Shown: piece by piece, positions 3,009 through 25,003 of the stretch | Layout of the letters: each line of letters begins with the position of its first letter | Position numbering within the stretch: the stretch's first letter is position 1 | Source of the DNA: Kipferlia bialata | Taxonomy: Eukaryota | DNA length: 35,340 nucleotides | Reading direction: 5' to 3' | Assembly: GCA_003568945.1 (NCBI GenBank) | Contig: BDIP01000001.1 | Location: 1-35,340, forward strand | Program-made: the position numbers and the translations under genes | Notes under the pieces: generated by a model | What the model was told of the DNA's origin: nothing | Seen by the model: only the letters and a program-made list of their open reading frames with translations | The model's database searches: none

Positions 3009-3043
<35 letters not shown>

Positions 3044-3625
3044 GCGGGAGAACATATGCAATTCCAACATCCAATAGAAAACACAATGACACCTTGTGCA
3101 TTGGGCATGTGGGTATCTGTCTAGCTATATAGATGTGTATACATACCTGTGCATGGGGCATGTTGGTATGGCCGGGGCAGGGATAACAGGCTTGACATCC
3201 ACCCTCACCCTCTCTCTCAGTGGAGGGTATGCACCAGGCTCAGTCTTCACTCTCTCTCTCTCTCTCTCTCCCCTGTCTCCCTGGCTGTCTCTAGACGGTC
3301 TAGAGGGTCTAGAATGTCTAGAGGGGGTGGAGGGGGTGGAGGGTGTAGTATCTCTGACAGAGGGAGCCTTGGCAAGAAGTCTATCTCTCACCAGCACCCT
3401 CTCCCCCTCTCTCCCTTGGGTACTGCGACCAGTCTGTGGGCTACTCACCCTCTCCTGCTTCACAGCAACCTCCACATACCCACGCTTGAGGGAAGGCTCT
3501 CGGGGTTCTCTCTCTCTAGGGTATGGATCTCTTGATGATCGAGGGTCAGCAGGTCCCAATCCCCTATGTCTCTCTCTCAGGGGCGGCTGTCTCTGTCGCT
3601 CCCTGCCTCTCCCTCCCCTGTCCAT
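1118..3625 (-). CDS. NOL9: Polynucleotide 5'-hydroxyl kinase Nol9/Grc3 (Clp1-like P-loop family), about 10 exons
   Basis: Walker A RVLVTGSTSTGKSAFVR|TLVN, Walker B YILDADPGQSEWGP, LLVVNAHGWNTGFG, and C-terminal GVGLVWSVSP..HVHLVT. Exon phases join consistently. ATG 3625, TAG 1118-1120. Confidence 0.85.
2979..3043. repeat. Long poly-G tract within a Nol9 intron
   Basis: About 65 nt of G with sparse A. Confidence 0.85.
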
Positions 3626-3872
3626 ACGTCCCCAGATATCCACAATCAAGGGGTATGATTACAGTGCCAAAGAAGAGCGAAGATGGATCGGACAAGATCA
3701 ATCTGAATTGACACCGATCATCTTGGAAACAGCCCAACCTTGTTCACATTGATACCCTCTCCTCTACAGTAGACAGAGAGATATCGGGTCCTCCCAGAGC
3801 ACACCAGGAGGGGGTGGGAAGCCACAAACCCCGAGGCTCTCCCACCGACGGAAGAGCAGTGACAGGGTGTCC

Positions 3873-6800
3873 ATGGATACCAGAGGGAGTGGGGCCGGCC
3901 TAGACCCAGGCCTCGACTCTATCCTCCATCCACCGGCAGATCCGGCACCCAAGAGCGCCCCCAAGCCCCCTGGCGTGCCTTCTGAGCAGCGGGAGGGAGT
4001 TGTATCCTCCTGGAGCACTGGGAAGATACTCTCCCCCCCCACCCACGCCCCAGTAGCCGCTGGGCTTGGTGTTGTGCCCTTCTCACACTCTGGCAGACAC
4101 ATAGGCCACACACACCTGCCCGGCATGTCGCCATATGACACACCCACCTCTGTCACTGAGGCAGAGGGTACTAGTGTCCCCGCCAGTGAGGGTGCTAGTG
4201 TACCTGCTAGCGAGGGTGCCTCCAGTGTTGCCAGTCCCGTTGTGAGTGGGTGGTACAGTGAGACCAGCACTGAGGCAGTCACTGAGTGGAAGACGGAGGG
4301 GTCCAGTGGTGTGGTCACCCCCCTGTCTGTGGTGGATGTGCCATGGCAGATAGTGACGCCATACTACACTGCTACGGCATCCGGGACAGCAGAGGTACAG
4401 CATATATATGTATGGCCACTCTCTGTACATACCCACGCGCCGCGCCCTCCCCCCCCCCTACTATGTACATGATTGTGTTTCTTCGCAAGAGAGTGTGACC
4501 TGGGCAGCCCCCCCCCCCCACTCCACACACACACACTCTCTTACTTTCTCCTGTTTTCCTCACCCTCTAGGTCACCAACCTCCGTGTGCCCACCCCCACA
4601 CCAGAGGCACTAGCCAAGGTATGCATCCATGCCTCTGTTACTATCCATCACTTACACTCTCTATATACTATGTCTCTCTGCTTTTACCCAGGCCAGGGAG
4701 GGCTTTGCCTCAACATCCACAGGGGCACACCCTATTAGTGCTAGTGCCCCTGTCCCTGACACCACTGCCAAGGTATCAGTGATAATTATATATGAATAAT
4801 AATAAAATTATATGTATACCACCGTTAGTCCAGTCCAAATCTCCATCCCCCCTCGTCTTGTCTGACCCCCAGTCCTCCCCTCCCCCCTGGCTGTCCAAGG
4901 CCATGCAGGAGGACAGTCCTGTTCCTGATGGCAAGGTGTATATATATATATATATACATATATGTATATATACAGATAGATGTGTGTATTAGTCCAAGGC
5001 CATGCAGGAGGACAGCCCAGTGCCAGGGGGAAAGGTATATTTACTCAGACACTGTTATTCGCATTGCCTATGTATGGAACTACCCCCAGGTCACCCCTTC
5101 CCTGGAGACCTTCCTGACCTGTGACCCAGGGGAGGCAGCACAGGAGGCGGTGGAGCAGGGTATGCATTTGTATATATAATGTATATACATGATAGAGTAT
5201 ATATGTGTATACTTGCTGACCCAGGCCCTCTACCCAGTGACATCACCATGGTGTCTGCTGGCCATGACCTCAGCATAGTCTATGGGGCAGGGCAGGGGGA
5301 GGCAGAGAGAGAGGGGGACCACCCTAAGGTACACCCTCCCTGTAGTCATATACTGTCACTGACACTATCTCTTCATCTCTTTGTATACTCCAAAGGTACT
5401 CTGTTGTAGGGTGTTACACACAAACTATGCCTTACCTCCAGCCCACTGCCACCCCCCCTGGCAAGGAGCATGACTCAGAGGTGTGTATAGACTGTGTTTA
5501 TATAGTATATATGTGTGTATGATTGGTATTGTGACATATACAGCCTCCTACCCTTGGCAAGGAGCATGACTTAGAGGTACACATTGTGTGTTTGGTATAG
5601 AGTGCATTCATTCACGTCTATCCAGTGTGACTACAGTTTGAGGGTCTTACCCCCAGGTGAGTGACGCTGCAGCAGAGGCAGTTGCAGAGGCAGAGAGGGA
5701 GAGGGAGAGAGAGAGGGAGAAGACAAAGGCTCCTGCCGCACCCCTGACCCCCCCTGGTCTCTCTGTCTCCCCAACTTTTGAGACCAAGGGAGAGGCTGAG
5801 GGAGAGGGAGAGACTGTCCCCAAGACAGAGGATGTGGCAGAGAGAGTGGTACCTGTACCCAAGGCCAAGGGCAAGGCTAAGTCTAGGGCCAAGACCAAGC
5901 GCAGGGTGCTAGGGAAGGGCAAGAGACCCCCTGCCCCTGTCAGGGTGGAGGAATCACCACCTGCACCTCCTGCAAAGAGGTATGTGTACATATATACTAT
6001 ACAATATATAGTATATATAGTGTTATATACTCATATATATGTGTATGTCTTTGACAGTAGGACCAGGCCCATTAGAAGGGTTGTGCAGAAGATGCTGGAG
6101 AAGAGGGAGAGAGAGGCACAGGCCAAGAGGGAGAGAGAGAGAGAGACCCTGGAGAGAGAGATGTCCCAGGAGGCTGATGTGGATGACATTGTGCTAGAGG
6201 AGGAGGAGGAGGAGGAGGTCAAGGCCATTCCCATCCCAAGGTGGGTATTAATCGTGTAGCTTCATGAAATTATGCACTATACACAAGTACAGGACCAATG
6301 GCTCTATATGGATGTGTGTATACTTACATATCTATGTGTATATATACCCCTAACCCCAGGGCCAAGAGGCCCAAGAAGGAGAGGGGCAGGGCCAAGACTA
6401 AGAAGAGAAGCCCGGCAAAGAGACGCCCAGGTTTGTGTCCTATTACGGACTGTCTATATACCCCTCTGCCTTACATACTAATATCCAGGCATGCGTGGCC
6501 GTAGCTCTCTGGCCACCACCAGTGCCTCCCCCTACGTGTCTGCCCCTCCCTCCCCCTACGAGCCCTCTGACACTGAGACAGACTACATTGAGGTATCACA
6601 CGGACCCGCCAAGTGCGAGGCAGCACTGCTCAAGGTACATATTTACTCGGGTACTCATTATGTCAAAACTTTGGGGTTGACGTGACCAATCTGAATTAGT
6701 GGTCGTCTCTTTCTCTCTCTCTCTCTCTCTCATACCCTAGGAGTGGCCTGACCACTCTGAGTATGTGGTTGTCTCTTTCTCTTTCTCTCTCTCTCTCTCT

Positions 6801-6964
6801 TTCATACCCCAGGAGTGGCCTGACCACTCCGAGTATGTGGTAGTGTCCAGGGCAGACATGCCAAGGAGACTCCTCAAGAGATGTGCAGACCTGGCAGAGG
6901 AGCACACAGGTAGGGGACTCTCTCTCCCTCTCTCTCCCTCTCTCTCTCTAAATCCCTGCCAGTC

Positions 6965-6999
<35 letters not shown>

Positions 7000-8062
7000 C
7001 TCACTCCTAGGCCAGTGTGCCAGTGTGGATGACCTCCCCCCTACCAAGAGACTGTCCCATCATCAGAACATGTTCCTCTTCAGAGTGCAGGAGTCAGGTA
7101 CTATCTCTCTCTCTCTCTCTGTCTATATCCTCACCAACAAGTTTCCCCTCCAAATCCATGCACTCATCTCTCTCTCTCTCTCTCTATACTTAATGATATG
7201 TATTAGTGTATACTAACTGTAGGCCTCCCCCGCACTGACAGACACCCCTCCAAGGCCATGCACTCTGACCCAGCTGCATTCTGGGACAGGGTCAGGGGGT
7301 ACATTGCATTCAGGTACGATGTACCTGAATACACCTGGATATAGAGCCCTATGTAGTACCTAACACACCCCCTCACCCCCAGGTTCATTGATGAGTACGG
7401 CTTCACCAGGGCATACATCATCGAGTGCCATGTCAGGAATGAGTACAGGAGGTATGGATAGTGCAATACCCCATCTCTGTATATATATATAGTATGTATA
7501 CATACACTTGTATATTGTTACCAGCGCAGTGTCAGGAATGAGTACAGGAGGTATTCGAAGTATACATACTCTCTCTCTCTATCTGTATGTCTATTCATTC
7601 TCCATTCAGTCTTCTACTCTCACTTCAGACAGAGCCATGGCTCTAAGATGATGGATGCCATGGATATGATCTCTCTCTCTCTCTCTCTCTCTCCATACAT
7701 ATACCCATATGCAACACCTGATATGCAGGCAGAGCCATGGCTCCAAGATGATGGATGCCATGGAGTTCTCTTTTCTCTCTCTCTCTGCATTCTATCAGTG
7801 TATATATATTCACACTCTGATATGTAGGCAGAGCCACGGGTCCAAGATGATGGATGCCATGGAGGTGATAGTCAGGGACCTCGGTATGGACCAGGTGGGT
7901 AATCAGGTCTCTCTCTCTCTCTCTCTCTCGCTGTCTCTCTCTTGCTGTCTCTCTTCCCCTGCCTAACCCAGGTTGCCCTCACTGTACACAACGACAACAA
8001 GGCAGGAGTGCACTTCTACAACAGGTACTAGGGAATAGCGTATTTGTATGTTTTATGTACTG

Positions 8063-8104
<42 letters not shown>

Positions 8105-8203
8105 ACTGATGTCAGGCTAGGCTTTGTGCCTGCCTTTGAGAACCCAGACGATGACCCCACCTGCACATACACCATCATGAGCAAGGATGTGCCAGTGGAG
8201 TAG
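3873..8203 (+). CDS. Multi-exon protein with long low-complexity N-terminus and C-terminal GNAT acetyltransferase domain (Naa40/NatD-like)
   Basis: Spliced C-terminus RVRGYIAFR|FIDEYGFTRAYIIECHVRNEYRR|QSHGSKMMDAMEVIVRDLGMDQ|VALTVHNDNKAGVHFYN|RLGF resembles Naa40 (F..FRFD.E...lYcYEiql....RrkGlGk.LM...VmLTVf..N..A..Fy). Upstream exons are phase-compatible. TAG 8201-8203; start codon less certain. Confidence 0.75.
4164..4235 (+). repeat. Coding tandem repeat, 3 x 24 bp (EGTSVPAS/EGASVPAS/EGASSVAS)
   Basis: Directly visible in the sequence and in the translation of exon 1. Confidence 0.8.
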
Positions 8204-8961
8204 GCTTAGGGACTTTGTTAAAGGGAGTGAGTGCACTGTGTGGTAGAGTCAAGGCTGTGCATTGGACATGCTCCAGAGGGTGATACACCATCATGAGCTA
8301 GGATGTGCCGGTGGAGTAGACTAGGGGATATACAAGTGGAGGAAGGTGGGGTGTACCTCTATTGTAAGTGGGGAGACATCCCTAATGACTAGTCTAATAG
8401 ACACTGAGGCAGCAGAATCAGTGACAATGAGTGGAACCGTCTATTCATTTACCTCCTTTCACTATAGACATGTGCAGGTCCATCAATATATCATATAGCC
8501 TGTCACGGCAGAAGACTGGAACAGCTTGTCATATCTCTACACAGATGCTACATGGACGCAAGTACATAATGAGGACAGACGTCCAAGGACACGCCCCCGG
8601 CCCTACTCAGTATCACACCACTGCAGCTGATGACTAGCGTCACAGCAGCATCGTGCAGGTACAACCGGTCACAGGCAAATAGGGGAGACTCTCGAGGTAT
8701 CAGATCACTGGTGGAGGTCACAGGGGACATGGGTATGTATCCTCCTACTAGGACGTATCCTGAAGGGGTCTCGAAGAGAGACTCGGTCTCGTCAGGGGTC
8801 CAAGACACACAAATGGCATCTACTCAAGGCCTCACTCTCTGACAATGAGGGTCCCGCAATGGCAGCGTCTACTCGTAGTGCCGCCCTAATGTCTGAGACA
8901 AGAGCAGAGCACATCTCAATGTGGAACAGTCCACAGTGATGAAAGCACTCTCTGTCTCTGC

Positions 8962-10103
8962 CTACTCGAGTGCCGCCCTGATGTCTGATGAGGACAGCTT
9001 GCCCCCTCCCTCTGCTCCCACCACAGGGATGGACACGACGGTGCAGGGGGGGAGAGAGAGGGAGAGGCGGGCGGCATCGACCATCGACACACAGCCCTGG
9101 GGGTGAGGGGGTTAGAGGCACTGGAGAGAGAGATGGGGTTGAGACTGAACCCTACACTGTATGCACCACTTTCCCTACCTTTGTCTCCTCTGACACTACT
9201 AGGTACCGTATCTGTGCGTCTGTGCCGACTGGGCCAAGGGCAGAGTGCAGGGGGAAGGGCACACACGACACGGGGGAGGAGGCATCATCCAGACAGGCCA
9301 TGTATGCAGAGACAGACTGGGCCCTGACAGCCCATGGCTCGAGGTGGTGGGAGTGGGACTGGGGTCAGTGATCCATATATATTGTATACCAACATGACAA
9401 TACACATATATACACTATCCATATATAATATGTGGTGGGAGTGGGAGTGGGACTGGGGGTGAGTGATCCATAAATATAGTACGCCAATATAACAATACAC
9501 ATATATACACTATCCATATACATTATGTGGTGGGAGTGGGAGTGGGACTGGGGGTCAGTGGAGAATTAGTGTGCTATATATATTTTGATTGGATATCCAT
9601 TGTATCTATATACGATATAGGTGGTGGGAGAGAGGACTGCGAGTCAGGAGCAGTGATCCATATACGACTCTCTGACAACCTATATGTATAGATTCAATAT
9701 ATGATGGTGGCGGGACTGGGGGTATCAGTGAGAGAGTGGTACCGGTGTCCAAGAGATGTGACTGTGATGGATACCTTGTTGCCGGTGAGAGCAGACTCGG
9801 ACACCCCCACAGACACCGATGCCTTGCACCCCCTATCCAGCAGACACCGTGCCAGGGCATGGGCTGCAGAGAGGAGGCGTCTATGGCCATCATGGAGATG
9901 GTCAAAGGTGCCCCCGACTGCAACAACAACAGGCAGGGGGGAGGGGGTATCCAGAGTCACCCCACATGCAGCAAATGATGATGCAATGTCATCTGGAGGT
10001 TAGAGTGGTAGGCGTATCGCAGATACATACTCTCTCAACAATACCGGTACCGATACCGAATAGTATCAAAATCATACTAGGTACCATTATGAGGGCCAAC
10101 CAT
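8962..10103 (-). CDS. Phosphopantetheine adenylyltransferase (eukaryotic CoaD/Cab4-type, HxGH nucleotidyltransferase), 4 exons
   Basis: MVGPHN|DDIA...VAVGGTFDHLHDGHRRLL...VGVSESALTGNK|SHSHHLEPWAVR...GPVGTDAQIRYLVVSEETK|GC...GKLSSSDIRAALE*. All hallmark PPAT motifs are present (GGTFDxLHxGH, LVVSEET, KLSSS). Confidence 0.92.
9343..9730 (-). repeat. Five degenerate ~90-bp tandem units spanning the PPAT intron-2 acceptor and exon start
   Basis: GGTGGGAGTGGGACTGGGGGT[C/G]AGTG-like core at about 9343, 9440, 9535, 9620 and 9705. Neighbouring intronic sequence (caatacacatatatacactatccatata) is also repeated. Confidence 0.85.
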
Positions 10104-10256
10104 GTAGATAGCGCAAAAACTAACCTGTGGAGAAAACGTTATCCCGTGACGGGGCCTGGAGATCAACAAGCATCACTGAAGGAGAGAGTGAACCTCAGAG
10201 TCTGACTCTCGAAATCGCAAAAGGGTTTGGGTTGAAGTTTTTGTTTGGCCAGCCAA

Positions 10257-11280
10257 ATGCTTGAGCCGGGCAAGTACTCACTTCTGACTTGCCGCATTCC
10301 AGCTCAACTCGAATGTGAACGAAGCTCTTTCCTTTTGTTAGAGATGATCACAGTGCCAGCCAGCTTCAGCACAGTGTTTGTACACCTCCTAGGCCAGGAC
10401 ACAAGTGCTCCCCAGGGTCCTGTGTCTGTTCCACCAGAGTTTAGCAACTTGGAGAGTCTTGCTGCCGTGTCATGCCTTTTATCTCGTTGTGTTCCTGCTG
10501 CAGCGCTCACCCCGTCGACTATCACTGCTGGCTTGATGGTCTACCTTACACAGAGTGCCCACAGGTACGTTATAGTGTATATGTGAGTGAGTGAGTGACA
10601 TGTATAGTATGCCGCATTTTGTAGTTAACGAGTCCTCTTACCCTAGTCTTTCCATGGGGGACGTCATCAAGAACCTGCTACCCGTGCCGTACAGGGCCTG
10701 CTACCCCAACGAGCTCTCCTACCGCCATGCCTTCAACGCCTGGATCACCCAGGTGTACCGCCCCCACCGTGCCTTGATGGACGCCATCCAGGAGCGGGTC
10801 TTCAACCTCGATGTCTCCGAGGCCGAGATCGAGGCCGAGGGCAACAGGCTCAAGGCTGCCGGCATCGGTCTGGACTGGAAGACCCCCCGCCCCACCCCAT
10901 CTCCCTCTGCCCCTGCCCCTGCCGTCTCCGTGGTCCGGACCCCAAGGAGGTCATCAACCCCGAGGAGGTCGAGGCCGGCCCCCATCGAGACCTCCTGCGC
11001 CGCCGAGGTCGACTCCCCCGCCACCCCCCAGACCGTGACCAGGGGCCGCCACGCCCTGCCCGTGACGCCCTCTGCCCGCTCTACCCGTGTCTCAGGCCGC
11101 TCCCCCATGGGCCGGTTCCTCTCTCGCACCACCTCTGTCTTCGGGGGTGTGACCTCCCGGGTGGTGTCTGCCCTGTCCCCCAGGTCCAAGGGTGCTAGCA
11201 GGCACAGGGCCATGGACCTGTCAGGGGGTGCAGTGACACCCACAAGGAGGCCAAGGGCAAGGGGCCTCAAGGTGATGTAG
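10257..11280 (+). CDS. Hypothetical protein, 2 exons (intron 10565-10646), C-terminal S/T-P-x-R-rich disordered tail
   Basis: ATG 10257, a GTACGT...CCCTAG intron joining two ORFs in frame, strong C/G3 codon bias in exon 2, TAG 11278-11280. Confidence 0.7.
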
Positions 11281-11745
11281 GCCGTGGGCAGTGTTTGTGT
11301 GTAATAGATTATCAGTATTATGAGTTAACGTCACTGAGGAGAGACAGAGTGGGCATAACGAGTCTATTACTGTTCAGCTTCCGATATGATTCATACATCA
11401 CAACGACCAATATCGGATAAGAATAGGAGGTGATGAAGGCGGTAGTACATCCCTGGACGTCCCAGAGGTACCTCAACACGTATCTACATAGATACACGGA
11501 GGAGACTCAGGACCAACCCATCTGAACATCGGGAGGGTGCTTGTCCTATTCACCCCTAGGGTATCCCAGGGACTAGCCAATACACTGCCCACTGTCTCTG
11601 GGTCCTGTCCGCGACGTGTCCATGACAGGACGGGAATGGAATATTGAATACACTCTGGGTGCTAGTGTTCCAGGGAGGGAAGCAAGTAAGAGATATCCCC
11701 CCCCCTCTCTCTCTCTCTCCCAGCCCATCGGTCTGTCCCTCACCC

Positions 11746-13778
11746 TCACTGAGTGCACTGGCTGCGGGGTATGTACTTGGGGGGGTTGGTCACAGACCGG
11801 CCATCCCTAGGGTTGATACGCATATAACTATCAATCTATATATATGATGTTAATATATAATGCCCCACCTTGTGTTTAGTATGCAGTCCAGACAGAATGG
11901 CTCCTCTGAGGATAAGGACACAGACACGCAGGTGGGGGGTCTCTGGCTGCCCTTCTTGGAAGCCCCCTTGCCCCCCTTGCCCTTGCCACTCTTGCCACTG
12001 ATGAGGTCTAGCACCCTGCTCTGGGCCCTGGCCACACTCAGCCTAGGGTAAGGAAGAGAGAGAGAGAGGGAGAGAAAGAGAGAGAGTCCCCACACTGCTC
12101 TGGGCCCTGGCCACGCTCAGTCTAGTGTGAGAACGACTTACATACACAGACACATACATATATATGGAGAGAGAGATACCTTGCTGCGAGTAGGAGCGAT
12201 GGCCCAGCCGCACACCCCGCCTTGTCCTCCTCCTCACTCCTAGCACTCCTGACGGGTATCCTGCCCCTGCCTGTCTCTGTGTCTAGGCGTCTGGCAGCGG
12301 CACAGTCCTCTGGGTATCAGATAGATACTCTATCTACAGATATATAAATGCCACTCACTCTTTGTGGGCCTAGACGCAGCTATTAGCCACGTCGGGGGTG
12401 CCACCACGGTGGGGTCAAAGGTGTTCTCTGCCCCCCCTCCCCTGCCGACCCTTCCATCGTAGTCATGCACCGTATCAGGAACGGCAGAGGGTGCGACAGG
12501 GAGCTGGCCCCTAGAGTGAGGAGGGAGAGGGATATGTAAAGGGAGAGAGAGTGGAGACTATACCTCCCGACCCTGATGAGGTCATTGAGGTCCCTTGTGA
12601 ACTGCTCCACCACTGTCCTGGGCTTGGGGACACTGCCCTTCTTGATGCCCTGCCTGGTGTTCCACACAACCTGGGGGTCAATAGATATGGAGGGTACTTT
12701 TAGTACAACAACATTACACAAACTGGGACACAAGCACAACTTGCATGTAATTGCTATATACACAAGACACACCTTGGGAGTGGGCACCCATGCAGCATTG
12801 GCAGCCACAGAAAGGTCTCCGTTATTGACCTGGGGATCAGATGGAGACAATAGGAGCAAGAGTCACTAGGAAACCATCCCTCACCTCGAGTGCCCTCTCC
12901 CTCAGGTCCATGCATATCTCTGGGTTCTTCTTGCCCTGGCCTATCAGCCAGCACACCCTGTCCCTCACCTCGGGCAGCATCGACAGACGGGCCTGCGGTC
13001 AGGGTCACATACACACTCAGACACATACACTGTCCGCACATTATTATCAATGGGAAGCGTTGGTACACGTACCACATCATCTGCGCTGCCCAGCCTGTGG
13101 TTGGTGTGTGCCGAGCACATGCTGCCAATGACCCACTGGTGGGGGGGGACACCGTCCAGGCGTCTCTCCACCATGATGGAGTGGCAGCAGCCCACAGCAG
13201 TGTACCCAGAGTGGCCAGTGTGGTGGCCTGAAGAGTGAGAACAGAGACCAGTATCGGGAGAGTGGTAAGCATGGCTGACCCATTGTCACAATATGAATAC
13301 TGGCCTCACCTTCAGGAACTGCCTTCAGCTCTTGAGAGCTCTCAGCTGTGAGGGCAGCAGTAAGAGAGCCAGCATTGAAGGATGCCCCAGCGTTCTTGCC
13401 TCCTGACAGGTCAGATACGGAGGATAGAGAGAGAGGGACTGCAGAGAGCTGAACCAGAGATGCTATACGGACAATGATGAACACATGGTCCCCACCTGCT
13501 TTAGCAGTGATGCGGGGTACTCCAGACCTGAAGCAGTTCAGAATGATCTTCTGGTCCTTCTTCCGCTGAGTGCGAGCTATTCCCCTCCGGATGGTGTACT
13601 GAACATTGTATTGCTTCTTCACACTGACGAGCCAATCATGGAGAGCAAGGTATGGGTTCGCCGCGTCATATGGAAGCGTAATTGGGAAGGACGGCCCGTC
13701 CTCACACACCATCCCATTCTGAGGCACCATCCTTAGCCTATAAGGACGTCTGTCTATCTCACGGCCATAGGGTCCCAT
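11746..13778 (-). CDS. FAR1/AFT-like (WRKY-GCM1 superfamily, Mutator-transposase-type) zinc-finger DNA-binding protein, about 10 exons
   Basis: Spliced: ..KQYNVQYTIRRG...KIILNCFRSG...GYTAVGCCHSIMVERR....QWVIGSMCSAHTNHRLG..ARLSMLPEVRDRVCWLIGQG, i.e. the C.R.G / GC / W / HxxH pattern followed by the helical segment seen in MULE proteins. No DDE core seen. The 3' end is uncertain (TGA 11746-11748, or a further exon to about 11560). Confidence 0.65.
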
Positions 13779-13873: not shown

Positions 13874-14672
13874 ATGGGCTGCGGATCTTCTACCCCTACC
13901 ATCGACGCCCTTCTCCCCAAGTCCACCAACCAGTACGTGTGGTTATATATTATAGGGATCAGGCCCAGTTACAGGAGGAGACACTCAGTGTACTGTATGT
14001 ACTGTATTTTCTCACACTCAGGGTAGTGCTCTTCAATGGAGAGGAGGAGACTCTGGCCATCCTGAGGACTGCAGTCGCTACCCGTACGTGCTATATGTGA
14101 TATATTTACGGTTTAGTGGCTGTGTGTGCGATGTTTATATATAGATCTGTTGATGCTCACCCTCAGGCACTGATATGGCCATCACTGAGCTGGTTGAGGT
14201 TGGAGAAGGAATCACCCCTGTTACCGACACAATGGGTATCCCTACCGCCGTCATTGGTCAGGAGGCCCGTGTTATTGTTCCCTGCCCACCAGGCACTGCT
14301 GCCCCCGCCACTGGAGAGTGGGTGGTTGTCAGTGGCACTGCCGGCAGTGAGGCCGACATCTTTGTCTCCCTCAAGGACTTCATCGTGCCAGAGGTTGTGG
14401 ACAAGGTAGAGGATATCGTTGCCCCCACTGAGGAGGCTGCCCCCGCTGAGGAGGTTGCTGAGCCTGTTGTGGAGCCTGTCGCTGAGGAGGCTCCAGTTGA
14501 GGAGGCTCCAGTTGTGGAGGCCCCTGTTGAGGAGGTTGCTGAGGAGGCCCCAGTGGAGGAGGCCGTTGAGGAGGCCCCTGTGGAGGAGGCCCCTGTAGAG
14601 GAGGCTGCTGAGGAGGCTGCTGAGGAGGCCGTTGAGGAGGAGGCTGAGGCTGTTGAGGAGGCCGCCGAGTAG
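13874..14672 (+). CDS. Small protein with MGCGSS N-terminus (predicted myristoylation and palmitoylation) and acidic EEAPV-repeat tail, 3 exons
   Basis: ATG 13874 MGCGSS; introns 13933-14021 and about 14084-14166 restore the frame into ORF 14175-14672. E/A/P/V repeats at about 14430-14669. Confidence 0.8.
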
Positions 14673-15371
14673 AGCCTAGTCCTAAGTATATAGTATTAGC
14701 TTATGAGCCGCTTGCTCATTCTACCATGGTGTTTTCGGATACCACAATGTAACAATAGAGGATCCCCTTGATTCTGTCTTTAATAAACGGAAGAGCTCCA
14801 AGCTCGGACTCGGGCCAAGACCCATTTCAACCATCCTAAAGAATGACTGGTCCATAGTCTCACTGCTCACCACACCTTCCAGGTATCACGGCTTTCTTTG
14901 AGGCTGAGAAACCCGTGCAAAAGAACAGCACCGGAACATCAGTATCAGTAGTAACCGCATCAGACCTAAATCCTAGCGCACCCCAGTGTGGCAGCAGCCT
15001 CTTCGAAGAGGGTGTCAATGGACTGAACCCTCGAAATTGATCTGACTGATCTTGTTTTTGCATGATAGCCTTGAAGGGGTCAAACATAGGGAGGCAGGCC
15101 ATCCTAAACAATGGAGCTTCCACAATCTGTCACACAGGAGTGCTTCTATCACTGGATCCCCGTGAGCGACGACCACAGTAACCTGTAGCCATGGCAAGTC
15201 TGAGAGTATTTCAAAAACATTGTTTTTGAGCTCTTCTATTTGGGAATTGCAAATGAACCGATGGGAAAAACAATGTTTTCTGGTTGACGAGCAAGGGTTT
15301 TTGCTAGAGTGAACAGAGCGAGCACCGGAGCCAGCCCCAGTGGCAGTGTTGGTTTTCTTGCGGAAACACAG

Positions 15372-15516
15372 GTACTATCACTATATGAGTCAGTGGGGAG
15401 GTGTTATAGTTATATAGAGTGGGTGTGTGGAGGTATGGTAGGGTTTTCTTGGTGTTTGGTTGGTTTTGGGTGGGTGTGGGGAGGGATGTGGTGTGGTGTT
15501 GCTGTTTTGACCCCAG
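15372..15516 (+). other. 5'-UTR intron of RPL9, ending 1 nt before the ATG
   Basis: CAG|GTACTA donor at 15372; TTTTGACCCCAG acceptor matching the local consensus ends at 15516; ATG at 15518. Confidence 0.7.
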
Positions 15517-15517
15517 A

Positions 15518-16078
15518 ATGCCCCTTTGCGCCACCGTCAAGACTGAGATCCCCGAGGGAGTGACCGTTGAGGTCAACAAGCGCCTTGTGCGTGTCACCGG
15601 ACCCCGCGGAGTCGTGGAGCGTAACTTCAAGCACACCTCCCTGGAGATGACCCTTGAGGGAAACACCGTCTCCGTCAGCTCCTGGTTCTCCAGGAAGAGA
15701 GACGCTGCTCTCTGCCGCACCATCATCTCTCACATCGAGAACATGGTCACTGGAGTCACCAAGGGATTCCGTTACAAGATGAGGCTTGTGTACGCTCACT
15801 TCCCCATCACTGCCAACGTCTGTGACGCCGGTGCCCGTATCGAGCTCCGTAACTTCTATCACGAGACCAAGATCAGGTCCGTGCCCATGCTCCCCGGTGT
15901 GACCATCTCCATCTCCACCACCCCCAAGGATGAGCTTGTGCTCGAGGGAAACGACATCGAGAACGTGTCCCTGTCCGCCGCTCTCATCAACCAGTCCATG
16001 AAGTGTGCCAACAAGGATGGACGTAAGTTCCTTGACGGTGCCTACGTTTCCTTCCGCGGAACCATGGACCAGCTCTAA
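15518..16078 (+). CDS. RPL9: 60S ribosomal protein L9 (uL6), intronless CDS
   Basis: IPEGVTVEVNKRLVRVTGPRG, GVTKGFRYKMRLVYAHFPI, KDELVLEGNDIENVS, NKDGRKFLDGAYV are diagnostic of eukaryotic uL6. Highly biased codon usage. Confidence 0.97.
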   Translation: MPLCATVKTEIPEGVTVEVNKRLVRVTGPRGVVERNFKHTSLEMTLEGNTVSVSSWFSRKRDAALCRTIISHIENMVTGVTKGFRYKMRLVYAHFPITANVCDAGARIELRNFYHETKIRSVPMLPGVTISISTTPKDELVLEGNDIENVSLSAALINQSMKCANKDGRKFLDGAYVSFRGTMDQL

Positions 16079-16465: not shown

Positions 16466-17141
16466 TTACTTGTTCAGCTCCTCATATATCTCACCAATTT
16501 CCATCATATGGGTCTGTACCATCCCTGCCAGGTTCTCCAGCTCAGCCAGACGCATGGCAGAGGGGTCATCGGCCAGGGCCATCAGCCTGTGCAGAGTCTT
16601 CTGGTAGTTCTTCTGGTCCGACCGCTTGCTGTACACACTCTCCATCAACACGTCTGGAAGCACAGTCTTGGGGATCATCGGTGGCTGGGGGGTCATCTTC
16701 ACACTCCGAGGCTTCTTCCTCACTGACCTCAGACGGTCACCACCCACTCCAGGTGTGTGCTCTGGCTCTACCTTCTGGATGTATCCCACTGCAGGGAACT
16801 CTGCGTCATTGTGGTACAGAAGAGACATCCGTCCAAGCTCATGCAGTCTCTGGTTGCCAAAGGCAGCTGCAATCTCATCAGCAAACCTGTCCTCGGGAAT
16901 ACTAAGGAGGCGAGCAATCTCTGGTAGCTTCTCCATCTTCGCCAGCATCTGGTGGGAGTTCGCCCTGAAGGCCCTCACAACTGCTGAGAACGCAGAAGCC
17001 TCTAAGAGTGAGGGAAGGAGTGAAAACAGGAATTGGAAACACATGTCAGGTCGCAAACTGAGTCTCAAGGCCTCCCAACGTACCAAACTCCCGAATCTCC
17101 CTCATTGCTTCATCTGCAACGGGATCATTGCGCGGCGCCAT
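16466..17141 (-). CDS. ENT (EMSY N-terminal) domain protein, 2 exons (intron 17002-17083)
   Basis: MAPRNDPVADEAMREIREF|EASAFSAVVRAFRANSHQMLAKMEKLPEIARLLSIPEDRFADEIAAA matches the ENT consensus (i+.lE.eAYssVlrAFrAqs...K..lL.eLr..L.Is.e.h..ei). Confidence 0.8.
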
Positions 17142-17408
17142 GCACTGATTGAGCTAGAGCCCTCTCTCCCTTCTTAGGTCTAGGTGGAAAGGCTACCTCA
17201 AAGAGGCAAAAACACAGCATACCTTAAGGGTGCAGTTTCTCAACAAAATGCCACACCCTCAATGTCAGTCTGACTGCCATATACTGGCAAAGAACACGGC
17301 TGTTCCACCTCTCAGAGCTCTCTAGCAAAACCCTGTATACCTAGTTGGGGTAGAAGACCACAATTTGGAGCACCTTGAAGAGTTTTGGGTGCTTTACGTC
17401 CATCTGAG

Positions 17409-19847
17409 ATGTATCCCCAGTATGGTTCGTCCTATGATCCGTCATTACCTAGTTATATGGCCCCTGTACCGGACACACAGCCTACTAGCAACATCCTGTA
17501 CCGAGATGACCCAATGCCGTACAGTTCTGCGTACAATCCGTTCGGATCCGTGCCGGCTGATCCCTACCTGCAGCCTATTCAGCTGAGTGACTCCCCCCCT
17601 GAGCCCTATCTCCCCTATCTCCCACCCCCTGTGTCTACTGGTGTGCCAATTCCACCTTCTGGACCCATTCCCCAGTACTCCCCCCCCGCAGCCCCTCCCG
17701 CTTTCCCCCTCTCCCCCATTGAACTGCCCCAGGGCTCCCTCCCCACCTCGGCCCCCTTTGCTTCCCGGGCCTCCTTCGGGGGGTACCAGCCAGGCTACCC
17801 CGTGAACCCAGCAGGGTTCAGGTACTCTGGTCCCCGGCTGGACCCCCTTGGGATTGAGGCCCCAGCCCCTGCCCCTGCCTACACCCAGCCCCAGTTCATG
17901 TCCCGGTACAGCCCCCATACCCAGGGCACCACGGGGGGCATCAAGCCGCTGGCCAACACATTCAACCCCCGCGCACCCCCTCCCACATTCCCCCAGCCCC
18001 AGCCAGGGGCACAGTTCCCAGCGCATGTGTCGTATGGGTCCAGGGTGGAGGTATGCCTCACCATATATGAATTGTATTGTACTCTCTCTCTCCCTCTCTC
18101 TCTATGTGTATGCTTAGTGTTTGTGGGTGCCCCAATATCTACTATAATAATAACCCCAGGGTGTTGTGGGCCAGGCTCCATGTATATCTGTGTCTTCATA
18201 TATATATATATATGTATATATATGTACACTACCCTGTTGTATATATATCCATAACCCCAGGGCGTTGTGGGCCATGGCTCCATCGGGTCCCGGTTCCTCA
18301 TTCCCAACTCAGAGGGACTCAGGGGCAGGAAGCAGGGCAGGGACATTGGGGACTACAACCCAGAGGTATATATACACATATATATATAGTCATATCATTT
18401 ATATATACACGCATATATATAGGGCAGGAGGCAGGGCAGGGACATCGGGGACTACAACCCAGAGGTAAGAAGTACATATATATACACACATATATACATC
18501 ATGTATCCTTGTCTTGTATAGGACTGGAAGCAGGCCTTTGCCTAGCTGGTGGATCACCCTTACTCTCCCCCCCTCCCTCCCTCTACTCCAAGTATATTTG
18601 TTATCCTCGCTAAATCAGGCCCGTGCCCAGCTCCTGGCTCCCTCCCTCCATTCCACCTATATTTGTAATTGGTTTATCTATAATAATAATCCTCTCTGTA
18701 ATCCCATCTATAATCGTATCTGACTCAGGCCCGTGCTCAGCTCCTGTCCGACTTCTATGCACACAGGACACACCGCATACACACCAGGGAGATCAAGTGA
18801 GTGCGCCTTACTCTTATTGGTGCTCATATACCTGAGTTATTCTCAGTATATTTGTATTCGTCCCTCTGTGTACTCTCTGTGTGTCTTACCTCATATACAC
18901 AGTCCCTCTCTCACTGCCAGGTATGCTGTGAGGCAGAAGCTGGCTAGCAGTGACACTATCACTATCATATCATACACGTTCTATTTCTATAGTCCTACAT
19001 GTCATATCATATCATATCTCTCACTGCCAGGTATGCTGTGAGGCAGAAGCTGGCAAACTCGAGGGTCAGAGTGAAGGGAAGGTATGGGTATCACTCTCAT
19101 AAGTGAATATGCATATAGTATGTGGGTGTGTATGCATTTCCTGACCCCCAGGTTTGTGCGTAAGGGTGAGGAGGCCGAGGTCAAGGCCGAGAGGGAGAGA
19201 GAGAACCAGCCTGTCAAGCCAGAGCCCCAGCAGAGGCACACCAACCCGCCCACTCAGGTATAGTCCCCCTACACACCATCCTATAGCTCTATATGCATTG
19301 GTATATATGTATCTGACGTGTCAGGACGCCAAGCGCTCCCACCGTGAGTACGAGCCCCCATCGGCCTCTCAGTCCCCCACTGGCTCTGAGAGCACACAGG
19401 GGGAGAGAGAGGGAGGGGACGGGGCAGGCCAGGTGGATCTGGAGGATCAGCTCAACATCGTCAGCGTCATACCAAGGTATGTATATCACTTAGACATCCG
19501 TGTGTCAATATATGTGCTACTCGCTAACTATTCCAACTCTGACCCCCTAGGAATGTGCCCACCAAGGCCTCCCTCTCTGCCTCCTTCATGCGCCTGTCCA
19601 TCAGTCTCTCATCGCTACCATTCACAGGCGCCAAGAGGGGACTGGCAGAGCGCTCAGTCTCTCAGGTAGTATATATCCACAGTGACCATATCCCCAGTCA
19701 CCATACTGTTTATGAGTGTATCTATTGTGTGTGACTGACCCCCAGGTTGCAGTTGGCCCCCAGTCTGCCACTCCCTCCCTCTCTGACGTCGACTCCATGA
19801 CAGTGCCCTTCGAGACAATAGCAGACGTCGTCATCGAGGATGACTAG
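17409..19847 (+). CDS. CCT-motif protein (CONSTANS/CO-like/TOC1 domain) with Pro-rich N-terminus, about 8 exons
   Basis: Spliced IGDYNPE|ARAQLLSDFYAHRTHRIHTREIK|YAVRQKLANSRVRVKGR|FVRK matches CCT (iG.YspeeR...i.ry..KR..R.f.+.IkY..Rk.lAdsRpRv+GRF). TAG 19845-19847. Confidence 0.85.
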
Positions 19848-20172
19848 ACCTATGGTAAACAGATTGTCCGAAGTCGAGGCTCCTGCATTCATTGCAGGCT
19901 ATGTCTCAAACGGTGTGTATTGATGAACAGTGTCCTTTATTTCCCTTTTGTGGTTTTCTCTCTGCGTTTGTGTCAGAGGGTGTTTCGGTTAGTTTCTGTG
20001 ATGGAATAGATTTCTTTTGTGAGGGCAAGTGGTGACTGATGTGATAGATCTATTGAGGATCATCAAGTGGACGAATTGGAAGAAATCGTAAAAGGGTGCA
20101 GCCCCAAAACCAATCAATGTGTTTGATTGGAAATGGTATCGGTCTCCTTTCCTGCGTCTGCTCTCTACTGTG

Positions 20173-20566
20173 ATGGGACTTCGCTCGTTTCTGAGTCGCA
20201 GGCGGGCCAGCAAGGTCCAGAAGAGCCTGCGGTCACCCGCGGCCCTTGCCATACGGGGTGTAGATGAGGTTATGTCTGGGCAGGTACTGACGGGTGGCAT
20301 TGGTCGTACACACACAGTGTGTGTGTCCCCAACTGTAGAGGGGGAGAGCGAGCATGCACAGACCCCGCCCCTGGATGCCGAGGAGGAGATGGACGTGTTC
20401 ACACTGGAGGGCACCGAGGGAGGGCCAGTGGGTAGGCCAAGTGCCGGAGAGAGAGAGAGAGAGACAGACTCAGCAGAGGTGACAGAGGCCGATGGTTCAG
20501 GTGGGGTAACTGGTGTATGTAGCAATATCCTTATTCCTTTATGTATTGTTGGTGTTCTATCATTAA

Positions 20567-20614
<48 letters not shown>

Positions 20615-20615
20615 T

Positions 20616-20648
<33 letters not shown>

Positions 20649-21539
20649 TCCACTGTTTCATTATCTGAACCCACCCACCAGGCCAATGGCAATAGTCTCT
20701 GTCTTCCCTTGTAAATATGGGTGTCTATGTATCTGGTCTCACTGTGTATTTCCTCTCTCTCTCTCCCTCTCTTCATACAGACTCTCACCACTTTCCTGAA
20801 TTACCCTGTCTCTGGCTCTCTCTCTCTCTCTCTCTCCCCCTCTCCCTCCATCTCTATATACTCACACCAGTGACATTAATACCCTACCCTTATCATGTCC
20901 TCCCTTCCTCTCTCTCTCTATCCCTCTCTTCGATCAAGACTCACTGCCTAGACGTGATGTCCCTAGCTCTCTCTCTCTCTCCCTCCCTCCCTAACCCCAG
21001 TGGCATAGACACCATGTCCCCTGTGCCTGGTCCCTCTCTCTCTCTCTCTGTAATATATAGATACACATTTCTTATCTCAGTGGCATTGACACCATGTCCC
21101 CCGTGCCTTATCCCCCCTCCCCTCCCTATATATATGTATACTATATACTCTATACTAGGATATACACATATATTCTTATCTCAGTGGCATAGACACCATG
21201 TCCCCTGTGCCTGGCCCCTCCTCCCCTCCCAGACACAGGGTGGTATTAGTGTCCAATGAGACACTGGTACCCACAGCAGAGAGGAGGTATGCTCTGTCTG
21301 TCTGTGTCTGATTATTATCTATTACCTCTACTCCCGATGTGATGTATGTATCTCTTCACAATCCTGATTCTCGGGAGTGACTATGTTCTCCTTTCTTAAC
21401 CCTCTATGCACATTGCCGACCTGTTGGTAACAACGCTGATAAGCAGCTTCCTCTCTCTCGCTCTACATGTGCATAGTATAATGTCTGACCCGAGTCGTCC
21501 TGTTGACAATAACAATGCTGACAAGGCCATCAAGGCCCT

Positions 21540-21576
<37 letters not shown>

Positions 21577-24500
21577 ATATATATTTCATGCATCTGACTC
21601 CTAGCCGTCCTGTTGACAATAACAACGCCGACAAGGCCATCAAGGCCCTCCTTCGCATGATGTGTGAACAGCTGGACGGGGTCAAGGTCCTAAGAGACAA
21701 GTGAGTGACTGAGTGTGTATATACATACTCTTAGAGTACCATTCACCCCAGTCGTCAGCTAGGCCCGATGCTTCTAGTCTTCGACAGTATATGAACATTA
21801 GTACATCTATATATGGATTTGGATACATTGGGGTAGCCTTTCCCCCTCACCCCAGGCGTCAGCTAGGCCCCATGCCCCTAGTCTTTGATGTCCTGTACCC
21901 TTTATCCAGGACAGACACATACAACTGGACACCGGCACAGCTCACAGAGTGGAGGTATGGATACAAGTACATACAGTATATACTGTGGTCTTGACAACTA
22001 TAAATGTAAGGGTACAGTTCACACTATGACCACATCTTCTCTGAACACCCACACAGCTCACAGAGTGGAGGTATGGATATGTGACTTGATTGCAGTATGG
22101 ACAAAACTACCAAGTGCTTATTGTTGTTTCTTCTCTATTATTTGTGTATTATGTATATTACTATTGTATATATCTGTTTCTTTACGCTGCCTCCTTCTCT
22201 TTCTGACCCTAGGCAGGACCGAGGCTACTCCAGGCCCCTGATACCCAGGAAGCACATCGAGGTAGGGGACAGTTATATACCTATATATACTATTACTCCC
22301 TTATAGTATATGCAAATAGAGGTAGGGGACAGTTATGCATATATATATAGTATATAGGTTGGAGACAGGGTAGCACCACCTCTCTTCACCCACCCATGAA
22401 GAGTGTGATACTGACTAGGATAATATGAATATGTAAGTATAAGAGTGGGTGTGTATGTGTAAGTATCTGACCCCAGGACACTCTTCACGAGTACCGGCGG
22501 ATGCTGCAGGAGAGGGAGAGAGACACCGAGGCAGGGGGAGAGGGAGAGAGGGATAGAGACCTGCTAGACGAGGGGTCTGACTATGAGGGTATAGGCGAGG
22601 GTGCGGAGAGGGAGAGAGAGAGAGACATGGACATGGACATGGGCCTTGTCTCTGGTGTCTCTCCCACTGTGAATAAGGGTCCAGGGGCAGTGACACAGAC
22701 GGACAGAGCACTCACCAACACAGACATCATCATGTTGTTTAATAGGTCGAGGTGTGGGATCTACGCATTGTATGAGTTGATCCATTTCCTTTTGTGTATA
22801 CATACACCTCACCCCAACTCCCTGTATATAACCTCATCCCCTCCTTCAAAGAGGTGGTCACAGAATATGGCAGTATATACAATGTCACATACTCTATCAC
22901 TTTCTGTAGAGACGAAATTACTCTTTTCCTAACCCCCAGTTCTCTCCTCCCCTCCTTCACTGACGGTCTGGTCTCCTTTCTGTTCATGTATATATATATA
23001 TATATTCGTCTCTCACCCTAGCTCCCTCCTCCCTTCCTTCCCTGATGGTCTGGTCACCTTCCTGTCCATGTTCCCTAGGTGCAGGACACATCTCACGGTG
23101 GTGTGCCACAAGACACTGACAGAGGTATTTATGCTATGTATACTAATGATATGGTATGCTTAGTAAGTAAAGATATATGGGTGGAGATAATGTGTATAGT
23201 GTCTATTGCACACCTGACCGTGGTGTGCCACAAGACACTAACAGAGGTATGTATAAGATATATATAGATGTACACATGTGCATTTTTGTTTATGTATACC
23301 CATCCCACCCCAGACCCCCCTGCTTGAGCTGACCCGTACCTGTGAGGCCATGTGCATACCACTCACACTCGTCAACAGCATAGGTACATTGATGTATAGT
23401 ATGTACAGAGTACAGTATACTCATATACTCATATATATATTGTGGACTGTGTTTCGGCTTCCAGTACACAATTCTCTACTCCAGCCTTTCTATTCATCCA
23501 TATATGTACTCTCTAACTACTCATTCCACCAGCCCTCTGTATATACTCACCCGTCAGCCCACCTTGACAGGCTGTGCTCCAGTGTGCTGTCCTCACACAC
23601 AGCCAGGGCATCGGTGCAGACAACACTGAGAGGGGCACTAGGTATATAGGGACATATATATATATGTATGAGAAATATATTTACATTTATATGAGTGTAC
23701 AGCAAGGGCATCGGTGCAGACAACACTCAGGGGGGCACTAGGTACGGTTGTATATATATATATGTATGTAAACATATATAGAAGTATACACTCAGGGCAT
23801 GGTAGTTGTATGTATAATATTTACACAAGACATGTATTTGTATGCCCTCTCACTATCAGTTGTTGGGTGTGCCACCGGTGCCAATGCCGTCCCCCTAGAG
23901 ATCATGGGCCCTGAGGGGGTATTGGAACAGCTGGTGGGGAAGGGGGCAGAGGTGGGGATTTACAATAACTGATACTACACTAGATAGGTATATAGGTACA
24001 CTACACAGTATATATGTATATATACCATGGGGTGCTGGAACAGCTGGTGGGGAAGGGGGCAGAGGTATGGGTATGAGTATATAGTTATACTATGCACTCC
24101 TATCTCTTCTTTCCTCTGTAAACCAGTGACATAGTTAGGTTGTGTCTCCCCCTTACCCTCAGACTTCTTCTGGACCCCGACCCCCTCTCCCCTCCCACCT
24201 CTCTGCCCATGCGTCCACCCATGCCTCCATGGCACAGGCATCTGCATACACAGACGACCACTCCTACAACGATATGGAGATGTCACACAGTCACAGCGTG
24301 ACACATAGGGGGTCAGAGAGGGAGAGGGAGAGTAGACATGGCAGGAGAGAGAGGAGGGAGAGTGGGGGTGTGCCTAGTGCTGGGTCCAACCTTCCCACTC
24401 TTGAGATGCAGGTGGCGGAGCAACTAGGGTACGCAGTGGCTCTCTCTCTATCTCTCCTTCTCTGTCTCCTATCGTATCTCTAACCCTCTAGCTGTGCGTG

Positions 24501-25003
24501 TATACTGCTGGTCTCCACCAAGGCAGCCCTCAAGCCAGCACTCGACGCAATAGGTACAGTTGGGTGAATAATGGTGTTTTCAGTGGATATTCTGCGAATA
24601 GTAGAGCAGGATGAATATAGCCGTATTCATAGTAATGGTGTATCTCTGATCCTCTAGGCCGTGCAGCAGACAGGGGCGGTGAGGCCGGTGCTGTGCTGCG
24701 AGTGGATGTGTGTGGACAGGAGATAGACTGGTGGAAGCAGGTACAGACATGTATGTGCATATATACATTCCAGGTTGAGCAGCACCTGTGTCCCTTCTAT
24801 ATATCTCTCTCTGTCCCTCTGTGTCTTTACATTCGTATATATATATCGTTACATTCGTATATAAGTATCCCCCTCATTGATAGGTTGAGCAGCACCTGTG
24901 TGGCAAGCACCTCTCTGCGGTGTGTGTGTACAGGGACAGTGTGGTGCCTGTGGTGCTGTCGGTCAGGGAGAACGACATATCGGTGTCCATCATACCCACG
25001 TGA
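20173..25003 (+). CDS. Large hypothetical multi-exon protein (about 14 exons); one exon probably missing near the poly-C tract at 20568-20646
   Basis: A phase-consistent chain of GT-AG exons runs from 21185 to TGA 25001-25003. Exon 1 (ATG 20173) does not join in phase to 21185. No domain recognised. Confidence 0.6.
20568..20646. repeat. Long poly-C tract
   Basis: About 80 nt of C with a few T. Confidence 0.85.

What the first reader, a model, noticed from the sequence alone, without database searches (positions are those of the whole stretch)
3091..24901. Pervasive 'exon-edge echoes': introns carry partial copies of the neighbouring exon boundary, mostly ~100 bp away
Seen: in six genes, about 25-45 nt of an exon end plus its GT, or an AG plus the exon start, is repeated inside the adjacent intron. 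Approximate positions: 3091/3145; 4894/4993; 5458/5554; 6741/6813; 7430/7530; 7629/7729/7828; 9343-9730 (x5); 12016/12096; 18160/18261; 18324/18423; 18619/18729; 18921/19031; 21001/21081/21185; 21416/21495/21605; 21751/21856; 21936/22050; 22940/23022; 23089/23211; 23599/23699; 23916/24029; 24773/24884. Spacing is mostly 90-120 bp (several are 99-100), close to the length of the simple introns here. Established: tandem duplication across splice sites is a recognised route to intron gain or expansion. Inference: at this density it looks like a systematic, length-quantised process that builds longer introns from repeated boundary modules, each a decoy splice site.
Basis: partly seen in the sequence, partly recalled or inferred. 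Interest (0 to 1): 0.85.

Follow-up and report, generated by a model that had tools for sequence, protein, structure and literature searches.

The report
Fossil alleles inside Kipferlia introns
In the free-living protist Kipferlia bialata, about a quarter of the introns in this stretch hold a second copy of the neighbouring exon's edge about 100 bases away, and the copies differ from the real exon mostly at silent codon positions, so they are likely leftover pieces of very different alleles brought in by recombination, which would point to hidden sex and extreme diversity in this group.

Summary
Real, not misassembly. The window is Kipferlia bialata. All 21 listed loci exist. 18 of 54 introns in six modelled genes carry an echo (null at most 6 of 2862); 0 of 19 further introns do. 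Read-built DNA contigs bridge 9 of 15 pairs at flat depth, and RNA contig lengths fit one copy per edge. Two echoes lie at stop codons. Best reading (0.55): echoes are pieces of strongly diverged alleles, kept and refreshed by unequal recombination; no second allele was seen directly. Spacing is concentrated (median 99, range 53-122), not quantised; no intron gain. Decoy sites score like true sites, yet the outer site is used, as in human F7 IVS7. The scan noted similar exon-end copies in a sea-urchin gene (e1-7787398). Ten paper searches found no report for Kipferlia. New variant of a known kind.

The parts
1240..3600 (-). Gene Z, CLP1 P-loop family protein (modelled 1240-3340; upstream end approximate), 8 introns modelled, 1 with echo
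   Evidence: open frame with GT-AG introns; PF16575 on one exon
3093..3169 (-). Donor echo: exon end 3147-3169, copy 3094-3116, d=53; copy has one extra base before its GT
3873..8203 (+). Gene A, GNAT acetyltransferase (KIPB_000003), 17 introns, 4 with echoes plus a stop-codon echo
   Evidence: model equals database protein P0122 over 558 of 558 residues compared; Pfam
4893..5036 (+). Donor echo: exon end 4893-4935, copy 4992-5034 + GT, d=99; 5 synonymous, 2 non-synonymous differences
5455..5578 (+). Donor echo: 5455-5480, copy 5551-5576 + GT, d=96; both differences non-synonymous
6684..6848 (+). Acceptor echo: copy 6741-6775 of exon start 6813, d=72, intron part nearly identical; weaker older candidate at 6684 (7 of 9 third positions differ, 1 of 18 others; chance not excluded)
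7145..7264 (+). Older echo of exon-interior 7245-7264 at 7145-7164, d=100, acceptor lost
7431..7869 (+). One 376-nt intron with a donor echo (7431/7530) and two acceptor echoes (7629, 7729; true site 7828)
8167..8319 (+). Stop-codon echo: last 37 coding bases with TAG copied 116 bp downstream
8870..8988 (-). Stop-codon echo of gene B, d=92; both substitutions synonymous, one extra base near the stop
8962..9978 (-). Gene B, cytidylyltransferase-like protein (likely phosphopantetheine adenylyltransferase; label recalled from motifs)
9343..9730 (-). Acceptor array: true site 9358, four copies near 9452, 9547, 9636, 9715; two copies carry an in-frame 6-nt extra repeat; a 95-nt unit is 91% identical
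12012..12123 (-). Acceptor echo in gene E (11870-13730): copy 12091-12121 of exon start 12042, d=79
17409..19847 (+). Gene C, 7 introns, 3 with echoes
   Evidence: open frame; RNA contig length 332 = 332 modelled
18150..19054 (+). Four echoes in gene C: acceptor 18160/18261, donor 18323/18422, acceptor 18619/18729, acceptor 18921/19031 (38 identical bases)
21185..25003 (+). Gene D (KIPB_000012), 12 introns modelled, 8 with scored echoes plus one short one
   Evidence: model equals P0121 over 495 of 495 residues; RNA contig lengths 349 = 349 and 146 = 146
20998..21230 (+). Acceptor triple 21001/21081/21185 upstream of the modelled part of gene D
21416..21888 (+). Acceptor echoes 21416/21495/21605 and 21752/21856
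21925..22353 (+). Donor echoes 21925/22041 and 22252/22312
22930..24066 (+). Acceptor echo 22940/23022; donor echoes 23087/23209, 23599/23699, 23916/24029 (9 of 9 donor-echo differences synonymous)
24772..24901 (+). Acceptor echo 24774/24884; RNA contig uses the outer site

Best explanation
Many long introns hold a second copy of the adjacent exon edge with its splice site, and these copies are likely pieces of other, strongly diverged alleles that unequal recombination would place and refresh there. Shown: the copies are in the DNA, the main mRNA uses the outer site, and copy and exon differ as two protein-coding alleles do. Inferred steps: (1) a roughly 100-bp duplication across a coding/non-coding edge is tolerated when the second copy falls in the intron or 3' UTR, because the site nearest across the exon wins; (2) K. 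bialata recombines between haplotypes about 25-30% apart at silent sites, with introns too diverged to pair; (3) the echo is then a homologous target, so a misaligned crossover between an echo and another allele's working exon edge rewrites the echo from the splice-site end, swaps the intron flank, adds or removes copies (arrays of 3 and 5) and sometimes promotes an echo to working edge; (4) between exchanges the echo decays neutrally for a short time (pN about 0.03, two nonsense changes). How the first duplication arises is not shown.
For: 47 of 60 mismatches at codon position 3 (6/7/47), 43 synonymous, pS 0.27, pN 0.031. Robust: 42 of 54 without the copy that shares changes, 42 of 54 in the genes with independently confirmed frames, third-position majority in 14 of 18 echoes that have mismatches; at most 0.001 in 12 decay simulations with transition and GC bias. 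Five further nucleotide-found echoes outside that count give 2/1/9 over the codons compared. Homology covers the exon part and the splice signals and then stops; the spacer is alignable to its counterpart in only 5 of 19. Synonymous differences run both ways (18 GC-to-AT, 14 AT-to-GC), non-synonymous ones lean to AT in the echo (12 to 3; Fisher P 0.19) and lie further from the splice site (P 0.09): both trends fit, neither is significant. A toy model reaches pS 0.24-0.27 with pN 0.03 only at allelic divergence 0.25-0.3. K. bialata keeps Spo11, Mus81, Msh3, PolQ, XPF and Rad10 (PMC8516963 supplement rows); metamonads lack NHEJ, fornicates lack Rad51A and have two Dmc1 (section 8). In the hypervariable fungus Schizophyllum, crossovers prefer exons (PMC4209137 passages).
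Against: No second allele was seen: no other letters in runs X1 and X2, one database protein per query and clusters of one member, no relative above 55% among 15 metagenome loci. The silent divergence needed exceeds the 0.20 reported for Schizophyllum as exceptional (PMC4576712 abstract), so cross-lineage exchange may be needed. My paper searches found nothing on sex or diversity in K. bialata. One echo (5455/5551) has only non-synonymous changes. The result rests on 60 mismatches in one window. The model does not by itself explain the peak near 100 bp or the uneven density (8 of 12 introns in gene D, 0 of 19 elsewhere). Poorly alignable spacers could also reflect fast microsatellite slippage.
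Confidence: 0.55

Rival explanations
1. Crossover scars made in one step: each echo is born when a break or crossover joins two diverged haplotypes (for example after hybridisation) with about 100 bp of overlap, one side running into the intron and the other starting inside the exon; no later refreshing is needed.
For: Same silent-site signature; unalignable spacers in 14 of 19; even divergence across echoes (chi-square 21 on 22 df); no NHEJ, PolQ present.
Against: Arrays of 3 and 5 copies need repeated events at one intron; some units are near-identical including the intron part (6741/6813, 9361/9456); the flap-trimming nucleases XPF-Rad10 and Msh3 are present.
Confidence: 0.15
2. The echoes are translated at times through an unrecognised alternative or stepwise splicing route, so selection acts on them directly.
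For: pN/pS 0.12; 22 of 22 decoy sites keep GT or AG and score like true sites; 5 of 13 RNA depth bins exceed the one-copy model by more than 5 units; the spliceosome is reduced and no snRNA candidates were found (PMC6679479 passages).
Confidence: 0.1
3. One reading: same-molecule tandem duplication across splice sites, then neutral decay of the intronic copy.
For: Head-to-tail geometry, wrong-side controls 0 of 96; 5 of 19 spacers alignable; known route (PMC4974935 passages).
Against: Predicts pN/pS of 0.5 or more and at most half of mismatches at position 3; observed 0.12 and 47 of 60 (P 5e-8 and 6e-6). A 38-base identical run sits beside a much more diverged spacer.
Confidence: 0.07
4. Echoes are frozen older versions of the exon because exon silent sites mutate about eight times faster than intron DNA.
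For: Would give the silent bias without any polymorphism.
Against: The intronic spacers are the most diverged part; 23 of 60 differences are transversions, with no CpG-type signature by inspection.
Confidence: 0.05
5. Assembly artefact: two haplotypes or strains joined in tandem, which would also give silent-site differences.
For: The published draft genome of this species is a short-read assembly (PMC5874029 section 7); X1 may be the source reads; no long reads seen.
Against: Separately assembled 31-mer contigs run through both copies in 9 of 15 pairs with no other letters at full depth; most pairs share no exact run over 28 bases (21 of 23), so the path needs real reads.
Confidence: 0.03

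Closest known systems
Human F7 intron 7 37-bp VNTR with 5' pseudo-sites (Borensztajn et al. 2006, PMC1557585; abstract read)
   Same: The repeat unit spans the exon-intron border; later copies are functional-looking donors that stay silent while the first is used.
   Different: F7 is one minisatellite of near-identical units. Here there are many unrelated two- to five-copy cases, on donor, acceptor and stop-codon edges, with copies diverged at silent sites.
[quoted passage not shown] 2016, PMC4974935; passages read; Gao and Lynch 2009 seen only as cited there)
   Same: Local head-to-tail duplication of intron/exon structure carrying splice signals.
   Different: No new intron or exon results here; the mRNA keeps one copy and the existing intron grows.
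Exon-restricted crossing-over in hypervariable Schizophyllum commune (PMC4209137 passages; PMC4576712 abstract)
   Same: Proposed here too: recombination between haplotypes over 10% apart, confined to conserved exons.
   Different: The word 'duplication' does not occur in that paper; for K. bialata the diversity is inferred from echoes, not measured.
Exon-centric proximity rule in splice-site choice (PMC9225289 passages)
   Same: Under exon definition the sites nearest across the exon win, which is the outer site used here.
   Different: Described for long-intron genomes; K. bialata has 50-120-nt introns, where the intron-centric rule would favour the echo.
Introners (Gozashti et al. 2022, PMC9860276; term search only)
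   Same: Systematic shaping of many introns in a protist.
   Different: Echoes are copies of each gene's own exon, not a dispersed family; Kipferlia is not mentioned in the main text.

Membership tests
Boundary-spanning tandem repeats with pseudo splice sites (F7 IVS7 type) | Unit spans the exon-intron border, head to tail | tested here: met
   20 of 108 edges, wrong side 0 of 96
Boundary-spanning tandem repeats with pseudo splice sites (F7 IVS7 type) | Pseudo-sites intact but mRNA uses the outer site | tested here: met
   22 of 22 keep GT/AG; contig-level RNA evidence for genes C and D only
Boundary-spanning tandem repeats with pseudo splice sites (F7 IVS7 type) | Many near-identical whole units (minisatellite) | tested here: not met
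   mostly two copies; spacer alignable in 5 of 19
Boundary-spanning tandem repeats with pseudo splice sites (F7 IVS7 type) | Copy number varies between individuals | not testable with these tools
   no second isolate found
[quoted passage not shown] | Duplication creates a new spliced intron from the two copies | tested here: not met
   RNA lengths equal one-copy models; no good partner site at the inner ends
Tandem duplication followed by neutral decay | Copy-versus-exon pN/pS of about 0.5 or more | tested here: not met
   0.12
Tandem exon duplication with mutually exclusive splicing | Whole exon copied with both splice sites | tested here: not met
   14-50 bases of exon with one site
Recursive splicing (ratchet points) | Branch point plus AG directly followed by GT inside the intron, with intermediates in RNA | tested here: inconclusive
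   donor echoes end in AG|GT because exon ends do (49 and 51 of 54) but lack a clear branch motif by eye; 2 of 13 acceptor echoes start with GT; intermediates not testable on contigs
Introners | Similar introns at unrelated sites | tested here: not met
   non-adjacent matches 1 and 6 of 2862; no long-range repeats to 2.5 kb
Unequal recombination between diverged alleles | Copies differ like selected alleles | tested here: met
Unequal recombination between diverged alleles | Donor alleles exist in the population | not testable with these tools
   none found

The most novel reading that the evidence does not exclude
In this NHEJ-less, Rad51-less, Dmc1-only lineage, recombination between haplotypes at or beyond the highest silent-site diversity known leaves and renews ~100-bp copies at coding edges across the genome, so one homozygous genome archives thousands of fragments of other alleles, reveals cryptic sex, and owes most of its intron length above ~130 nt to this process.
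Probability: 0.35. Interest if true: 0.88.

Novelty: new variant of a known kind. Interest (0 to 1): 0.72.

Why it matters
If the window is typical, a large share of the 124,912 introns reported for K. bialata (PMC5874029) would carry such copies. That would (1) give a concrete mechanism for intron lengthening, (2) let diversity and recombination in a fornicate, the group of Giardia, be estimated from a single genome, and (3) supply thousands of natural duplicated-splice-site experiments in a reduced spliceosome that picks the outer of two equally strong sites. The codon-position test used here is cheap and can be run on other polymorphic species.

Tried and rejected
No whole genome is held, so nothing is genome-wide. 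No RNA holder is on record as RNA; X2 is RNA by guess and by its spliced contigs; X3 and X4 gave 1 and 0 laid contigs. RNA junctions for genes A, B, E and Z were not obtained, so echo use there is untested; frames of A rest on P0122, those of B, E and Z on open frames and motifs. The joint table was filled with repeat noise and cut, so minor isoforms could not be seen. In-frame micro-exon idea: several AG-echo-GT lengths are multiples of 3 (8 of 16 with such a site), but the partner sites are weak; rejected. cDNA origin: echoes continue into intron signals, not into the next exon (3093 is ambiguous); rejected. Paralog source: one hit per query (only longer proteins searched, weak evidence). 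Missing flap nucleases: rejected (one supplement file was unreadable). Conspecific alleles in metagenomes: none among 15 loci. Frame-preserving spacing: 7 of 28 multiples of 3, no excess. The candidate old echo at 22830 was misregistered and is not counted; the candidates at 6684 and 22830 have P about 0.01 among 108 edges, so about one false hit is expected. Paper searches found no report of these echoes or of a silent-site bias in intronic exon-edge copies; the library lacks most subscription papers.
Full report
Organism and genes. Exons of two genes hit database proteins named Kipferlia bialata KIPB_000012 and KIPB_000003 at 99-100% identity, with no other hit. I modelled six genes (Z, A, B, E, C, D; 54 introns, all GT-AG, open frames). 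Models A and D equal the database proteins over 558 and 495 residues. For C and D the lengths of RNA contigs between displayed pieces equal the modelled exon sums at three of three spans (332, 349, 146). Reading frames for most echoes were therefore fixed independently of the echoes.

The observation. All 21 loci are present. A masked self-comparison gives 29 hits at 45-130 bp, none in three block shuffles, and 5 at 130-2500 bp. Anchored at splice sites, 9 donor and 11 acceptor edges in 18 of 54 introns have a copy in the adjacent intron; non-adjacent pairs reach the same score in 1 and 6 of 2862, wrong-side pairs in 0 of 96. These genes were picked for their echoes. Nineteen other introns read by eye have none, so the window-wide figure is about 18 of 73, unevenly spread (gene D 8 of 12, A 4 of 17, C 3 of 7, B 1 of 2, E 1 of 8, Z 1 of 8).

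Not an artefact. The strongest rival is tandem joining of two haplotypes. Contigs built separately from 31-mers of run X1 carry both copies for 9 of 15 pairs in 17.3-25.1 kb, with no other letters, at depth 472-531 (one contig 367); a 2141-base contig spans five pairs. Contigs break at the two pairs that share 38 and 31 identical bases, as real repeats would make them. X1 may be the source reads, and no long reads were seen.

Anatomy. A unit is an exon part (median 33 nt, 14-50) plus a spacer (median 70 nt); spacing is median 99, range 53-122 (the 28 spacings were listed by hand). Similarity runs through the exon part and the splice signals and then stops; the spacer aligns with its counterpart better than with unrelated introns in 5 of 19 cases. 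All echo introns are at least 137 nt and only 3 of 36 echo-free introns exceed 125 nt, but five echo-free introns of 143-225 nt lie in other genes. Two of nine stop-codon edges and none of seven start edges have echoes, so the common factor is a coding/non-coding edge. Decoy sites keep GT or AG in 22 of 22 cases and score as well as true sites (matrices were built from the same true sites).

The key result. Among 23 scored copies (717 aligned bases) there are 60 mismatches: 6, 7 and 47 at codon positions 1, 2 and 3; 43 are synonymous (pS 0.27, pN 0.031, ratio 0.12). If a copy had been identical at birth and then decayed, it would change at all positions while the exon changed at silent ones, giving a ratio of at least about 0.5 and at most half of the mismatches at position 3. 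That is rejected (P 5e-8 and 6e-6), also with transition and GC biases, without the copy that shares changes, and in the frame-confirmed genes alone. Five more echoes found at nucleotide level and left out of that count give 2/1/9 over the codons compared. Length differences are in frame in the gene B copies and at 21416, out of frame at 3093 and at the gene B stop. So copy and exon diverged mostly while both were coding; a short neutral phase followed (two nonsense changes; non-synonymous changes lean to AT and to the inner end, neither significantly).

Mechanism. Two coding versions of one exon edge are either paralogs, co-used copies or alleles. No paralog was found. Co-use lacks a splicing route and cannot cover the stop-codon cases. 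Gene conversion between the two neighbours alone gives equal silent and replacement differences (my reasoning, not a call). Alleles remain. A toy model matches pS and pN when alleles are 0.25-0.3 apart and the copy has been free for 0.01-0.02 substitutions per site. I therefore infer that a duplication across a coding edge is tolerated because the outer site wins (exon-centric rule, PMC9225289 passages), and that misaligned crossovers between the echo and other alleles' working exon edges refresh it, swap its intron flank and change copy number. This explains persistence, sharp homology limits and arrays. The toolkit exists: Spo11, Mus81, Msh3, PolQ, XPF and Rad10 are listed for K. bialata (PMC8516963 supplement rows); NHEJ and Rad51A are absent, Dmc1 is doubled (section 8). 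Against it: no second allele was seen, the divergence needed is above the 0.20 of Schizophyllum (PMC4576712 abstract), and neither the 100-bp peak nor the birth step is explained. One-step crossover scars give the same signature and are the nearest rival.

Comparison and novelty. It works like the F7 IVS7 pseudo-site repeat for splicing (PMC1557585 abstract) but is not a minisatellite; it is not intron gain (PMC4974935 passages), exon duplication or an Introner (PMC9860276, term search). The genome paper reports intron number only: 'duplicat' occurs 0 times in it (PMC5874029 passages and sections 7, 12). PMC6679479 (passages) covers the spliceosome. Ten searches found no report of the echoes. 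Unchecked notes of this scan describe exon-end copies in a sea-urchin gene; none exist for this genome. Verdict: real; a new variant of boundary-spanning duplication, whose silent-site signature is the surprising part; interest 0.72, limited by one window and no population data.

Noticed in passing
window, 54 modelled introns: Exon ends are almost always AG before the GT (A at -2 in 49 of 54, G at -1 in 51 of 54), and acceptors often read as a branch motif followed by a C run and AG.
   Followed up: partly
20184-21185: The link between the open frame at 20174-20505 and the exon at 21185 is unresolved; one RNA contig leaves the genome at about 20506 and another has 97 unplaced bases before 21185. 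The 20680-20960 stretch may hold more decayed echoes or a small exon; the database protein starts only at the ATG near 21198.
   Followed up: partly
18573-18666: Purely intronic duplication with offset 65 interleaved with the 110-offset acceptor echo.
   Followed up: no
14420-14670: Glu/Ala/Pro/Val-rich coding repeat of 12-27-nt units in a small two-intron gene.
   Followed up: no
15350-16078: Ribosomal protein L9 gene with one intron near the start; next-best full-length database relatives are only about 55-59% identical.
   Followed up: partly
2979-3042, 20568-20646, 31306-31388, 35304-35337: Very long G or C runs inside introns; lengths may be unreliable in short-read assemblies.
   Followed up: no
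25930-27850: Multi-exon gene with a ubiquitin-like domain followed by Cys-rich segments; no echoes.
   Followed up: partly
28553-29521 and 30000-31077: Two long intron-free open frames on opposite strands in an otherwise intron-dense region; the first has no Pfam hit, the second was not tested.
   Followed up: partly
5442-5480 and 5544-5576: The echo of this 39-nt exon is preceded by an AG that would make a 33-nt in-frame whole-exon copy, but the acceptor scores poorly.
   Followed up: partly
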